64,000 nucleotides of DNA from Malacoraja senta (GCA_038087875.1 CM075989.1:19780001-19844000); one strand, 5' to 3'; counted from the first letter of the stretch, positions 3,127-32,072 are shown. Numbers and translations: made by a program. Notes: a model not told the origin generated them from the sequence alone.

Positions 3127-3250
3127 GGGGTGGGAGATTGCAACGTTCACCCTGTTTCGACGAATGCAATCAACCCGACGTGCACCAACAGAAGATCAAA
3201 TAGAACAAGTTGACCTACAACTTTAGGGTGTGCACGCCATACACAAGAAG
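3127..3250 (+). mobile_element. HDV-like-ribozyme-headed short retroposon, decayed copy
   Basis: Homologous to 31801-31939; starts GGGGTGGGAGATTGCAAC, ends AAGAAG; 13-bp TSD ATTT(G/A)TGTCAAAT at 3114-3126 and 3251-3263. Confidence 0.85.
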
Positions 3251-3431
3251 ATTTATGTCAAATGATAAATTAATATGCAATTCTGTGGGTCAATTAGAGT
3301 CATAAAATTATATAGCACAAGAGCAAACCCCTCAGCTCACTAAATCCATCCAAATCTTTACAGATCAATAGTCCCATTTGCCTGTATTAGGATCACATCC
3401 CGTTGAAAATCCTGTTGAAATGCTTTAGATT

Positions 3432-5798: not shown

Positions 5799-6995
5799 AT
5801 GCATATCCAAATACAAGGCGTAGCTATGGGCACACGCATGGGCCCCAGCTACGCTTGCCTCTTTGTCGGGTACGTAGAACAATCCCTGTTCAATGCGTAC
5901 CAGGGCCCCATCCCCGACCTCTACCTCCGCTACATCGATGATTGTTTTGGTGCCACATCCTGCACCCACACACAACTGACTGACTTCATCCGCTTCACCA
6001 CCAACTTCCATCCGGCACTTAAATACACCTGGACCATTTCCGACACTTCCCTACCATTCCTTGACCTCACTATCTCCATCGCAGGTGATAGACTCCTTAC
6101 CGACATCCACTACAAACCTACCGACTCCCATGGCTATCTGGACTACACTTCTTCCCACCCTGCTTCCTGTAAGGACTCCATCCCCCACTCCCAATTCCTC
6201 CGTCTACGCCGCATCTGCTCCCAGGATGAGGCGTTCCACACCAGGGCATCTGAAATGTCCTCATTCTTCAGGGAACGGGGGTTCCCCTCCTCCACCATAG
6301 ATGAGGCTCGCACCAGGGTCTCTGCCATACCCCGCAACACTGCTCTCTCTCCCCATCCCCCCACTCACAACAAAGGCAGAGTCCCCCTAGTCCTCACCTT
6401 TCACCCCACCAGCCGTCACATACAACAAGTGATCCTCCGTCAGTTTCGCCACCTCCAACGTGACCCCACCACTCGCCACATCTTCCCATCTCCCCCTATG
6501 TCTGCCTTCCGCAAAGACCGCTCCCTCCGTAACTCCCTTGTCAATTCTTCCCTTCCCTCCCATACCACCCCCTCCCCTGGTACTTTCCCTTGCAACCGCA
6601 AGAGATGCAACACTTGTCCCTTCACTTCCCCCCTCCACTCCATTCCAGGACCCAAGCAGTCGTTCCAGGTGCGACAGAGGTTCACCTGCATCTCCTCCAA
6701 CCTCATCTATTGCATTCGCTGCTCTAGATGCCAGCTGATCTACATCGGTGAGACCAAGCGGAGGCTTGGCGATCGTTTCGCCGAACACCTCCGGTCGGTC
6801 CGCAATAACCAACCTGAACTCCCGGTGGCTCAGCACTTCAACTCCCCCTCCCATTCCGTATCTGACCTCTCTGTCCTGGGTCTCCTCCATGGCCACAGCG
6901 AGCAACACCGTAAATTGGAGGAAATGCACCTCATATTCCGCTTGGGCAGTCTACACCCTGGTGGCCTGAACGTTGAATTCTCCCAATTCTGCTAG
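5799..6995 (+). CDS. Penelope-like RT C-terminal half plus Cys-rich linker plus GIY-YIG endonuclease (N-truncated; the ATG comes from captured flank)
   Basis: QGVAMGTRMGPSYA and YIDD RT motifs; CNRKRCNTC linker; LIYCIRCSRCQLIYIGET...RFAEH; 398 codons without a stop. Confidence 0.9.
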   Translation: MHIQIQGVAMGTRMGPSYACLFVGYVEQSLFNAYQGPIPDLYLRYIDDCFGATSCTHTQLTDFIRFTTNFHPALKYTWTISDTSLPFLDLTISIAGDRLLTDIHYKPTDSHGYLDYTSSHPASCKDSIPHSQFLRLRRICSQDEAFHTRASEMSSFFRERGFPSSTIDEARTRVSAIPRNTALSPHPPTHNKGRVPLVLTFHPTSRHIQQVILRQFRHLQRDPTTRHIFPSPPMSAFRKDRSLRNSLVNSSLPSHTTPSPGTFPCNRKRCNTCPFTSPLHSIPGPKQSFQVRQRFTCISSNLIYCIRCSRCQLIYIGETKRRLGDRFAEHLRSVRNNQPELPVAQHFNSPSHSVSDLSVLGLLHGHSEQHRKLEEMHLIFRLGSLHPGGLNVEFSQFC

Positions 6996-31210: not shown

Positions 31211-31800
31211 ACCGGGTGGTGCTCGTAATGGTCACCACGCCAACAGCTTGTCGAGCCCTTTCTCTGTTTTTATTATTTTAAGTATGTCTTAAATGTATGT
31301 TTCAATGTTTCTTGGTCAGTTTATGTTGGGGGAGTGGGGGGGGGAATAGGGGGAAACTTTTTTTCAGTCACTTACCTCGACGGAGATGCGATTTTCTCCA
31401 GTTTCGCATCTCCCCCCCCCCCCCCCCCCCCCCCTTTGCGGCCTAACAACTTGGATTGGTGTGACCTTTCCTGGAGACTTGCCTGGAGCTTCAAGCCGTG
31501 GGCGCGGCATGGACTTACCATCGCGGAGCCAGGGATCCTTTGGCGAGGATCGCCAGAAGAAGAGCTCAGACCGCGGGGCCTGTGGACTTTAACACCGTGA
31601 AGCCGCGGTCTCCGGTAAGAAGAGGCCGACTCGGGAGCTCCATTATATGTCTCAATGCCAGAGTTTTGATCTTCCCGACAGGACGGCCTGCACATCGGAC
31701 CGTAGGCAACGGCAATTGCCGAGGGTTCACCATGGTGAACAAAGAGGAAGATGACTAAACTTTATTGCCTTTCATCACATGAAGAATGTTGATTCCACTG

Positions 31801-31939
31801 ACTTCTTCTTGCGTATGGTATGCACAGCCTAAAGTTGTAGGACAACTTGTTCTATTTGATCTTATTTGATTGTGCACGCCAGGTTGATTGCATTCGTCGA
31901 AACAGGGCGGACCACGTGAAGGTTGCAATCTCCCACCCC
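31801..31939 (-). mobile_element. HDV-like-ribozyme-headed short retroposon, intact copy
   Basis: 10-bp TSD GATTCCACTG (31791-31800, 31940-31949); (AAG)3 tail; no tRNA-like head. Confidence 0.88.
31886..31939 (-). ncRNA. Minimal HDV/CPEB3-type self-cleaving ribozyme fold (54 nt)
   Basis: P1 GGGGUGG/CCGCCCU, J1/2 GA, P2 GAUUGCA/UGCAAUC, P3 ACC/GGU, L3 UUCACGU, GU, vestigial P4 UUCGA, J4/2 CGAA. Confidence 0.85.
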
Positions 31940-32072
31940 GATTCCACTGTGATGGATGTTTATGTTAAATTTTATTTTATGTGTGTATTGTGTTCTTTTC
32001 ACTTAGTATGGCTGTATGGTAACTCAAATTTCACTGTAATTTGATTAAGTAACAATAAAGGCAAACTTGAAC

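What the first reader, a model, noticed from the sequence alone, without database searches (positions are those of the whole stretch)
31801..31939. SINE-like retroposon headed by a minimal HDV/CPEB3-type ribozyme rather than a Pol III promoter
Seen: the minus strand reads GGGGUGG GA GAUUGCA ACC UUCACGU GGU CCGCCCU GU UUCGA C GAA UGCAAUC. This fits the nested double-pseudoknot order. P1 has 7 bp with a G1-U wobble, P2 is 7/7, P3 is 3/3, L3 is UUCACGU and J4/2 is CGAA, with the putative catalytic C at 31896. P4 is reduced to about 5 nt. G+1 (31939) directly abuts a 10-bp TSD and the element ends in (AAG)3. Established: HDV-like ribozymes cut just 5' of G+1 and define 5' ends of R2, R4, RTE and L1Tc elements and of R2-derived SIDEs. 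L3 UUCACGU, the following GU and CGAA match the mammalian CPEB3 ribozyme as I recall it. Inference: this is a ~140-nt non-autonomous element that cuts itself out of host read-through transcripts and borrows a LINE RT. Intronic copies could also cleave host pre-mRNA. I do not know of a description of this family in cartilaginous fish but cannot exclude one.
Basis: partly seen in the sequence, partly recalled or inferred. Interest (0 to 1): 0.92.

Follow-up and report, generated by a model that had tools for sequence, protein, structure and literature searches.

The report
Ribozyme-headed short retroposon family
This 139-base stretch is one copy of a very abundant short mobile element whose first 54 bases fold like a stripped-down hepatitis-delta-type self-cutting RNA, a design it shares with the larger mobile element that most likely copies it around the genome.

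Summary

Window 31939..31801 (minus strand) is a 139-nt retroposon copy. It has a 10-bp target-site duplication and an (AAG)n tail. At least 6,630 copies in this 1.94-Gb genome carry the same head.

Positions 1-54 fit the HDV-type nested double pseudoknot. This is the only descriptor match in the window, against 0.13 expected per shuffled window.

I found a likely partner LINE: a single endonuclease-plus-reverse-transcriptase reading frame ending in ACACGACAG(AAG)n. Its 5' end is a full-size HDV-like fold with the same segment lengths as the SINE head. Between the two, 9 of 18 pairs change on both sides and 198 of 198 cells stay paired.

A second, ~170-nt SINE-like family also starts with an HDV-type fold. 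It scores E 4e-5 against Rfam's CPEB3 model.

Against: every Rfam score is below its gathering cut-off, no RNA data were available, and about 1% of copies lack 9 nt of P3/L3 yet keep the same 5' end.

Ribozyme-headed non-autonomous retroposons are already known (R2 SIDEs, NARTc). This is a new P4-less variant, dispersed at high copy in an animal genome.

The parts
31940..31949 (-). 5' copy of the target-site duplication (CAGTGGAATC), directly abutting G+1
   Evidence: the same 10 nt recur at 31800-31791
31886..31939 (-). Head of the element: a minimal (P4-less) HDV-like fold, element positions 1-54. Segments: P1 5' strand 31939-31933, J1/2 31932-31931, P2 5' strand 31930-31924, P3 5' strand 31923-31921, L3 31920-31914, P3 3' strand 31913-31911, P1 3' strand 31910-31904, J1/4 31903-31902, 5-nt linker in place of P4 31901-31897, J4/2 CGAA 31896-31893 (putative catalytic C at 31896), P2 3' strand 31892-31886.
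   Evidence: descriptor match and shuffles; Rfam HDV-F-prausnitzii 14.4 bits and CPEB3 11 bits, in register; pair counts against the LINE head; the minimum-energy fold gives P1 plus P3
31849..31885 (-). Variable linker or body, positions 55-91. Positions 55-82 are the part that differs most between subfamilies A, B and C.
   Evidence: variable sites at 31878-31881
31832..31848 (-). Conserved 3' hairpin AAGTTGT-CCT-ACAACTT, positions 92-108: a 7-bp stem and a 3-nt loop whose last base varies by subfamily
   Evidence: loop site 31839 is variable
31802..31818 (-). 3' terminal box and tail, CCATACGCAAG(AAG)n. Subfamily B reads CCACACGAAAG(AAG)n, close to the LINE end ACACGACAG(AAG)n.
31791..31800 (-). 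3' copy of the target-site duplication (CAGTGGAATC); the T at 31801 lies between the tail and this copy

Best explanation
The stretch is one young copy of a non-autonomous non-LTR retroposon family, here called SINE1. It is SINE-like in size and copy number but SIDE-like in design, with no Pol III-type head.

Its first 54 nt form a minimal, P4-less HDV-like self-cleaving ribozyme.

Proposed mechanism (inferred, not shown):
1. Copies are transcribed passively inside host read-through transcripts.
2. The ribozyme cuts just 5' of G+1 and so sets the RNA's 5' end.
3. The 3' hairpin, the (C)A(C/T)ACG box and the (AAG)n tail are used in trans by the reverse transcriptase of an RTE-like LINE. That LINE ends in ACACGACAG(AAG)n and itself begins with a full-size HDV-like ribozyme.
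4. Target-primed reverse transcription then makes the 8-15-bp duplications.

Shown here: the retroposon anatomy, the copy number, the fixed 5' end, the fit to the fold, the shared architecture and compensatory changes with the LINE head, and the shared 3' terminus.

Inferred: catalysis, the read-through origin of the RNA, and which LINE does the copying.
For: Family:
- The 32-nt head pattern has 6,630 genome matches at 1 mismatch or fewer; the reversed control has 0.
- A conserved internal 20-mer has 5,830 exact matches.
- The top 40 scored matches are 98-100% identical.

5' end. Flanks are unrelated upstream of G1 and duplications abut it.

Other organisms: in contigs of runs carrying 4 other coded organism labels, loose ends pile up at 31939 with unrelated flanks (contigs only).

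Fold:
- It is the single descriptor match in the window, against 0.13 expected.
- In 296 kb of fetched loci the descriptor hit 62 sites: 51 SINE1 heads, 10 LINE heads and 1 head of a second SINE-like family.
- Rfam on the head alone gave only HDV-F-prausnitzii and CPEB3_ribozyme, out of 4,227 families.

Partner LINE:
- The 3' end is an open reading frame, about 20 nt of untranslated sequence, then ACACGACAG(AAG)n in 13 of 16 copies read, with close variants in the other 3.
- There are 1,320 first-look candidates.
- Pfam finds RVT_1 at 1e-26 and Exo_endo_phos_2 at 4e-9.
- Of the 22 5' ends read, 7 start GGAGGAG right after unrelated flanks. Ten vary by 1-3 nt (two of these are one duplicated locus), and 5 are a rearranged form.
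- The LINE head has the same segment lengths as SINE1 (7-2-7-3-7-3-7-2-P4-4-7).

Covariation, on 5 SINE1 rows plus 6 LINE rows (MAFFT alignment A3):
- 198 of 198 cells are paired.
- 9 of 18 pairs change on both sides: 3 in P1, 4 in P2, 1 in P3 and 1 in P1.1.
- Slid controls give 43-51% paired cells and 0-2 such pairs.

Conservation: the heads of subfamilies A, B and C differ at only 3 sites. These are position 8 in J1/2, position 32 (U5-G to U5-A) and position 45 in J4/2 (CGAA to CTAA). The body at positions 55-82 differs at many sites.

A P4-less HDV-like class is in print (passage in PMC10879173).
Against: - No cleavage assay and no RNA-end data were available. All sequencing runs offered were contigs.
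- All Rfam scores are far below gathering: 14.4 against 44 and 11 against 35. The whole-window gathering scan found nothing.
- The LINE head gets no HDV-family hit at all at E up to 10.
- The covariation rests on only two or three lineages, so each pair counts as about one event. I chose the rows, and the structure was drawn from these same sequences.
- 63 copies (about 1%) lack 9 nt (half of L3, the P3 3' strand and part of the P1 3' strand). They cannot form P3. Yet 27 of the 30 read start at the same GGGG/GGGA, many with visible duplications.
- Minimum-energy folds are no better than shuffles: z is +0.9 for the head and +0.5 for the whole element. That method cannot see pseudoknots.
- P4 is replaced by 5 nt. 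A G37-C44/U38-A43 mini-hairpin around UUCG could compete with the active fold; it is not in the minimum-energy fold.
Confidence: 0.75

Rival explanations
1. The head is an inherited HDV-type fold that no longer cuts, because losing P4 killed catalysis. It is kept for another role, such as a 5' pseudoknot bound by the LINE protein. [quoted passage not shown]
For: - The 63 copies of the 9-nt-shorter form still have the same 5' end.
- Rfam scores are sub-threshold.
- The review PMC6765202 (passage read) says the R2 protein binds a pseudoknot in the ribozyme region, so a non-catalytic role for such folds is known.
Against: - The putative catalytic C, the A-A of J4/2, the L3 core and a P1.1 pair are all kept across subfamilies A, B and C and in the LINE and SINE2 heads.
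- Natural P4-less HDV-like ribozymes exist (passage in PMC10879173).
- Short forms make up only about 1% and are spread over subfamilies roughly in proportion to the long forms: 19:8:3 against about 26:6:8 (my own sorting by eye). That fits by-products better than a separate lineage.
Confidence: 0.15
2. It is an ordinary SINE whose head is an internal Pol III (or Pol II) promoter derived from some small RNA. The HDV-like drawing would then be coincidence, and G+1 would be a transcription start.
For: - The sense strand has no run of four or more T, so Pol III would not stop inside it.
- GTTTCGAC faintly recalls a B box; this is my own reading, from recall.
- The short form keeps its 5' end.
Against: - ARAGORN finds no tRNA-like gene.
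- No Rfam small-RNA family matches. The only head hits are HDV-type.
- The same architecture, with 9 compensatory pairs, heads a protein-coding LINE and a second SINE-like family.
- The descriptor's chance rate is about 1 per Mb, yet it falls on the first base of all three families.
Confidence: 0.05

Closest known systems
R2 SIDEs and R2/R1 hybrid SIDEs of Drosophila (PMC3414825; abstract and passages read)
   Same: - Short non-coding elements built from a 5' HDV-like ribozyme plus the 3' end that a LINE's machinery recognises.
- Not Pol III transcribed.
- The ribozymes of the SIDE and the LINE differ mainly by compensatory changes.
   Different: - SIDEs sit in fixed rDNA sites at low copy number, are co-transcribed with 28S rRNA, and were shown to self-cleave.
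- Here the copies are dispersed genome-wide, at least 6,630 of them.
- The partner is an endonuclease-type, RTE-like LINE.
- P4 is absent, the body shows no similarity to the LINE pieces I hold, and cleavage is untested.
L1Tc and NARTc (and ingi/RIME/SIDER) of trypanosomatids, with the L1TcRz HDV-like ribozyme (PMC3383444, PMC3185411, PMC4035085; abstracts as listed)
   Same: An autonomous LINE and its short non-autonomous partner both begin with an HDV-like ribozyme that frees the RNA from a longer co-transcript.
   Different: - There the two share the same 77-nt sequence, which also acts as a promoter, and the host is a protist with polycistronic transcription.
- Here the SINE and LINE heads are only 19 of 38 identical over the ungapped 5' part (alignment A3), and a promoter role is untested.
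HDV-like ribozymes at the 5' ends of RTE and baggins LINEs (Ruminski et al. 2011; known to me only through the review passage in PMC6765202; the paper itself is not held)
   Same: - The LINE found here has the RTE build: one reading frame with endonuclease then reverse transcriptase, a very short 3' untranslated region and a simple-repeat tail.
- It starts with an HDV-like fold.
- The review also states that some non-autonomous SINEs use HDV-like ribozymes.
   Different: - The clade assignment is by architecture only; no phylogeny was made.
- I could not see which SINEs that paper describes, so overlap with this family cannot be excluded.
Mammalian CPEB3 ribozyme (Rfam RF00622)
   Same: - SINE1 shares L3 UUCACGU, the CCCUGU run and CGAAU with the Rfam consensus.
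- SINE2 also shares P2 GCAGAA/UUCUGC and matches the full model at 25.4 bits, E 4e-5 in a 141-nt search.
   Different: - CPEB3 is a single-copy intronic element of mammals with a 7-bp-class P4.
- Both scores here are below the gathering score of 35.
- These elements are repeat heads, and SINE1 has no P4.
Minimal HDV-like ribozymes (drz-Mtgn, theta ribozymes of gut phages; PMC10879173, passage read)
   Same: A double pseudoknot without the P4 domain.
   Different: - Those come from metagenomes and phages, next to tRNA genes. The paper says their origin and function were largely open.
- This one heads a retroposon in an animal genome.

Membership tests
HDV-like (delta-type) self-cleaving ribozymes | Nested double pseudoknot: P1 enclosing P3/L3, P2 crossing P1, and P1.1 between L3 and J1/4 | tested here: met
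   - Read from the sequence.
- Descriptor match unique in the window, against about 1 per Mb in shuffles.
- 198 of 198 cells paired over SINE1 and LINE rows, including one P1.1 pair that is C-G in SINE1 and U-A in the LINE.
HDV-like (delta-type) self-cleaving ribozymes | Cleavage site immediately 5' of the first P1 nucleotide (G1, usually a G-U wobble) | tested here: inconclusive
   G1-U36 is present, and the genomic 5' ends of SINE1, SINE2 and the LINE fall on or within a few nt of G1. No RNA ends or cleavage products were seen.
HDV-like (delta-type) self-cleaving ribozymes | Catalytic C at the start of J4/2, followed by purine-rich J4/2 | tested here: met
   J4/2 is CGAA or CTAA in SINE1, CCAA in the LINE and CCAA in SINE2. 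No variant reaching 10% at 31896 in contigs of 4 runs. Its catalytic role is not testable here.
HDV-like (delta-type) self-cleaving ribozymes | Self-cleavage dependent on divalent metal ions | not testable with these tools
   Needs an in vitro transcription and cleavage assay.
HDV-like (delta-type) self-cleaving ribozymes | Reaches an Rfam curated gathering score (RF00094, RF00622, RF02682) | tested here: not met
   - SINE1 head: 14.4 against 44 and 11 against 35. Nothing in the window at gathering threshold.
- LINE head: no hit at E up to 10.
- SINE2: 25.4 against 35, 27.2 against 50 and 24.8 against 44.
- These models hold no pseudoknot pairs, and for SINE1 they penalise the missing P4.
SINE in the strict sense | Head derived from a Pol III-transcribed small RNA (tRNA, 5S, 7SL) with an internal promoter | tested here: not met
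   ARAGORN finds none. No Rfam small-RNA family matches at gathering or at E up to 10 apart from weak snoRNA noise in the flank. So it is 'SINE-like' or 'SIDE-like', not a SINE proper.
LINE-dependent non-LTR retroposon | Target-site duplications of variable sequence, occasional 5' truncation, and a 3' end shared with an autonomous LINE | tested here: met
   - Duplications.
- Truncated copies with duplications.
- The LINE ends in ACACGACAG(AAG)n; SINE1 ends in CACACGAAAG(AAG)n or CATACGCAAG(AAG)n.
RTE clade of LINEs (for the partner element) | Single reading frame with an N-terminal AP-type endonuclease and a reverse transcriptase, no ORF1, a very short 3' untranslated region and a simple-repeat tail; clade placement by reverse-transcriptase phylogeny | tested here: inconclusive
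   - Architecture fits.
- The one long copy read (L131) is rearranged, with its 5' part inverted.
- No phylogeny was made.
CPEB3 ribozyme family | Single conserved copy in an intron of the CPEB3 gene of mammals; Rfam gathering score of 35 | tested here: not met
   It is a repeat head with thousands of copies, and it scores 11 bits. There is a resemblance in the core motifs only.

The most novel reading that the evidence does not exclude
The mammalian CPEB3 ribozyme, whose origin is unexplained, may be a domesticated head of this lineage of (AAG)n-tailed, RTE-type retroposon ribozymes.

- SINE2 keeps CPEB3's P2 (GCAGAA/UUCUGC) and an L3 that differs at one base.
- SINE1 keeps its exact L3, its J1/4 and its J4/2.

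If so, this genome would hold living relatives of the ancestor. It would also hold thousands of potentially active intronic cutters that could shape host pre-mRNA processing.
Probability: 0.2. Interest if true: 0.85.

Novelty: new variant of a known kind. Interest (0 to 1): 0.62.

Why it matters
If the head cuts, this would be a naturally minimal (54-nt, P4-less) HDV-like ribozyme at the head of a retroposon in an animal genome, amplified to thousands of copies.

It comes with two in-genome relatives, the LINE head and the SINE2 head. Together they give a ready-made set of compensatory variants for structure-function work.

It would extend the 'ribozyme instead of promoter' strategy of R2 SIDEs and NARTc to a dispersed, high-copy family.

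It would also give a concrete, testable lead on where CPEB3-type ribozymes came from.

Thousands of copies inside transcription units would be candidate co-transcriptional RNA cutters.

Tried and rejected
- **Rfam, whole window at gathering threshold:** 0 hits. At E up to 10 over 341 nt, only snoRNA-like and lncRNA noise in the flanks.
- **tRNA-derived head:** ARAGORN found none.
- **RNA evidence:** no RNA holder was listed by the look-up of sequencing runs. All 4 runs laid were contigs, so nothing can be said about RNA starts or expression.
- **LINE hunt through the 3' hairpin:** a pattern with negated upstream bases gave 108 hits. The 30 I fetched and read were SINE1 copies with small indels, 5'-truncated copies with duplications, or copies split by other insertions.
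- **Scan of the sequence fetched up to that point (the window and the first 90 loci) for other (AAG)n ends:** this produced the one true lead, L052.
- **First long LINE copy fetched (L131):** it proved rearranged, with its 5' part inverted. The 5' ends were therefore read from other copies.
- **Idea that the 9-nt-shorter head is ancestral:** rejected. The long head occurs in all three body subfamilies, in 40 of 40 copies sampled in genome order, and at 6,630 against 63 genome-wide.
- **SINE bodies as internal-deletion products of this LINE:** blastn-short found no similarity beyond the tail.
- **Minimum-energy z-scores:** uninformative, +0.9 to -1.7.
- **MAFFT alignment with SINE2 added (A4):** it shifted SINE2's P1 by one column because its J1/2 plus P2 is one nt shorter. 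SINE2 pairs were therefore read by eye and not counted.
- **Primary papers by Ruminski 2011 and Webb 2009:** not held.
- **Earlier notes of this scan:** none on this genome or this sequence. Notes from other genomes rejecting other 'ribozyme' claims concern unrelated sequences and were not used.

Full report
**What is at the coordinates**

A 54-nt head can be drawn as an HDV-type nested double pseudoknot:
- P1, positions 1-7 with 30-36: seven pairs, with wobbles G1-U36 and U5-G32.
- P2, positions 10-16 with 48-54: seven Watson-Crick pairs.
- P3, positions 17-19 with 27-29: three pairs.
- L3 is UUCACGU and J1/4 is GU.
- Five nt (UUCGA) stand where P4 would be.
- J4/2 is CGAA, with its C at 31896.

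The element runs to 31801. CAGTGGAATC lies at 31949-31940 and again at 31800-31791. (AAG)3 lies at 31810-31802, and one T separates the tail from the 3' duplication.

**More than chance**

I wrote a descriptor of my own: P1 of 7 bp starting with G, J1/2 of 0-8 nt, P2 of 6-8 bp, P3 of 3 bp, L3 of 6-8 nt, and C-N-R-A directly before the P2 3' strand.
- It matches once in both strands of the 64-kb window, at 31939.
- It matches 4 times in 30 dinucleotide shuffles of the window, about one per Mb.
- Rfam finds nothing in the window at gathering scores.
- When only the head (68 nt) is searched at E up to 10, the only two of 4,227 families returned are HDV-F-prausnitzii and CPEB3_ribozyme. HDV-F-prausnitzii scores 14.4 bits at E 0.58, aligned over the whole model from 31939. 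CPEB3_ribozyme scores 11 bits at E 1. Both are in the proposed register.
- The printed CPEB3 consensus confirms that L3, the CCCUGU run and CGAAU are identical.
- These scores are far below the curated cut-offs of 44 and 35.

**It is a large, young retroposon family**

- The window's own genome is 1.94 Gb. A search with the element gave 1,424 first-look candidates.
- All 40 scored matches are 98-100% identical, and 39 of the 40 start at query position 1.
- A conserved internal 20-mer has 5,830 exact matches.
- The 32-nt head pattern has 6,630 matches at 1 mismatch or fewer. Reversed controls give 0.
- I read the first 40 places of the 20-mer on contig 1 as a sample that does not depend on the head. 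All 40 carry the long head. One is 5'-truncated inside L3 and two have internal deletions.
- A simple script found an exact duplication of 6 nt or more in 30 of the 40. In 20 of these it ends within -1 to +2 nt of G1. The other offsets are mostly small indels or imperfect duplications.
- No copies share sequence upstream of G1.
- Tails are (AAG)n of varying length.
- There are at least three body subfamilies (A, B, C). Their heads differ at only three sites: position 8 in J1/2, position 32 (U5-G32 becomes U5-A32) and position 45 in J4/2 (CGAA to CTAA). Positions 55-82 differ at many sites.
- Contigs of public runs under four other coded organism labels hold the element with the same boundaries and unrelated flanks. 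In the head, the only sites varying at 10% or more are positions 32, 42 and 45. These are contigs and say nothing about RNA.

**The partner LINE**

A scan of the fetched loci for other (AAG)n ends led to a 5'-truncated LINE fragment in L052. It has a reading frame ending ...LAWLASTELQV, then about 20 nt, then (AAG)n.
- The genome holds 1,320 first-look candidates for this 3' end.
- Of 16 ends read, 13 are ACACGACAG(AAG)n and 3 are close variants.
- SINE1 subfamily B ends CACACGAAAG(AAG)n, and subfamily A ends CATACGCAAG(AAG)n.
- A longer copy (L131) has a reverse-transcriptase frame (Pfam RVT_1, 1e-26) and an AP-type endonuclease part (Exo_endo_phos_2, 4e-9). The endonuclease part is inverted in that copy.
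- The build is one frame with endonuclease then reverse transcriptase, no room for an ORF1, a very short 3' untranslated region and a simple-repeat tail. That is the build of RTE-type LINEs. This is an inference from architecture; I made no phylogeny.

**The LINE begins with the same kind of fold**

Probing upstream gave 22 LINE 5' ends.
- Seven start GGAGGAG directly after unrelated flanks.
- Ten vary by 1-3 nt at the tip; two of these are one duplicated locus.
- Five, on unplaced contigs, are a rearranged form that lacks the P1 5' strand.

The head reads GGAGGAG AC AAAGACA GCC U(C/U)UACGC GGC CUCCUC(U/C) AC, then a 36-nt P4 region, then CCAA UGUCUUU. Its segment lengths are identical to SINE1's (7-2-7-3-7-3-7-2-x-4-7).

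MAFFT aligned 5 SINE1 and 6 LINE heads with a single gap at P4 (alignment A3). Nineteen of the first 38 positions are identical. On that alignment:
- All 198 cells form standard pairs.
- 9 of 18 pairs change on both sides: three in P1, four in P2, one in P3. The ninth is the P1.1 pair, which is C-G in SINE1 and U-A in the LINE.
- Sliding the partners by 1-3 columns gives 43-51% paired cells and 0-2 such pairs.

Caveats: there are two lineages only, I selected the rows, and the structure was drawn from these sequences. Rfam gives no HDV-family hit on the LINE head.

**A second ribozyme-headed short element**

The descriptor's one other hit in the fetched loci (L007:2948) heads a ~170-nt family, SINE2.
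- The head reads GGGAUGC AA GCAGAA GCC UCCACGU GGC GCAUCCC GG, then a P4, then CCAA UUCUGC.
- A 32-mer of it has 322 genome matches at 3 mismatches or fewer.
- All 9 copies read start at GGGATGC. Most of the 8 complete copies have visible duplications, and they end ...GGACACGAGG(AAG)n.
- In a 141-nt search it matches CPEB3_ribozyme at 25.4 bits (E 4e-5, full model), HDV_ribozyme at 27.2 bits (E 0.017) and HDV-F-prausnitzii at 24.8 bits (E 0.005). All are still below gathering.

Three families with (AAG)n tails therefore each begin, at their first base, with an HDV-type fold.

**How it most likely works**

Shown: the anatomy, the numbers, the fixed 5' end, the fold, its preservation through compensatory change, and the shared 3' terminus.

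Inferred:
- Copies have no promoter of their own and are transcribed within host transcripts.
- The head cuts 5' of G1.
- The LINE's enzyme primes on the box-plus-(AAG)n end and copies the RNA into new sites.

This is the logic shown experimentally for R2 SIDEs (PMC3414825, abstract and passages). It is also reported for L1Tc/NARTc (abstracts as listed).

I put 0.75 on the head of master copies being an active self-cleaving ribozyme. P4-less natural HDV-like ribozymes are in print (PMC10879173, passage).

**What argues against**

- No biochemical or RNA-end evidence was available. No RNA holder was listed, and only contigs could be laid.
- Rfam scores are sub-threshold.
- Minimum-energy folds recover P1 plus P3 but are no better than shuffles. 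The method cannot see pseudoknots.
- 63 copies (about 1%) lack the same 9 nt and cannot form P3. Yet 27 of the 30 read start at GGGG/GGGA, many with duplications. The window's second copy, 3127-3251, is one of these.
- These short forms occur in all three subfamilies, roughly in proportion to the long forms (my sorting). They may therefore be recurrent by-products of copying already-cut RNA rather than a self-propagating line. This is not shown and remains unexplained.

**Comparison with what is known, and novelty**

Searches of the held literature found no paper describing such a family:
- HDV-like ribozyme, SINE, non-autonomous.
- HDV-like, ribozyme, shark, skate, elasmobranch, retrotransposon.
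- CPEB3 ribozyme, retrotransposon, origin.
- drz names.

A 2019 review states that RTE and baggins elements carry HDV-like ribozymes. [quoted passage not shown] The cited primary paper is not held, and I could not query Dfam or Repbase.

The principle is therefore known. What appears new is:
- the P4-less 54-nt form as a retroposon head;
- the dispersed high copy number in an animal genome;
- the trio of LINE plus two short families;
- the closeness of their cores to CPEB3.

I did not verify the taxon.

**Verdict**

This is a real feature. It is a new variant of a known kind. Interest 0.62.

Noticed in passing
window 3127-3251 (+): A second SINE1 copy (84% identical, subfamily C body, duplication TGTCAAAT). 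It has the 9-nt-shorter head that cannot form P3/L3. This form has 63 genome matches and keeps the normal 5' end.
   Followed up: partly
L007:2948-3041 and L156-L163: A second SINE-like family (SINE2, about 170 nt, (AAG)n tail, duplications). It is headed by a full HDV/CPEB3-like fold with P4. Rfam CPEB3 gives 25.4 bits, E 4e-5, and a 32-mer has 322 genome matches.
   Followed up: partly
L052:713-1100 (-), L131, L133, L135, L136-L149, L164-L179: An abundant RTE-like LINE with an ACACGACAG(AAG)n end and an HDV-like fold at its first base. The L131 copy has its endonuclease part inverted relative to the reverse-transcriptase part.
   Followed up: partly
L150-L154 (unplaced contigs): A repeated rearranged form of the LINE 5' end. 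The P1 5' strand is missing, and an inverted piece of the LINE's own 3' coding region sits directly upstream. Many such copies lie on small unplaced contigs.
   Followed up: no
L083, L088, L079, L062 (around their centres); also L007 near 3100: SINE1 copies (and SINE2 in L007) are interrupted by other insertions. In L083 and L088 the interruption is at about element position 93-95, by an element ending in a (TCTATGTT)n-type repeat. This may be an insertion hot spot.
   Followed up: no
L012/L013, L048/L049, L105/L106, L137/L141, L070/L071: Pairs of loci with identical flanks as well as identical elements. These are segmental duplications, not independent insertions, so they slightly inflate copy counts.
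   Followed up: no
window 31742-31810 (+): Weak C/D-box snoRNA-like Rfam matches (SNORD12 at 16.5 bits, E 1.4, and others) overlap the 3' flank and tail on the opposite strand. They are far below gathering score and are taken as noise.
   Followed up: no
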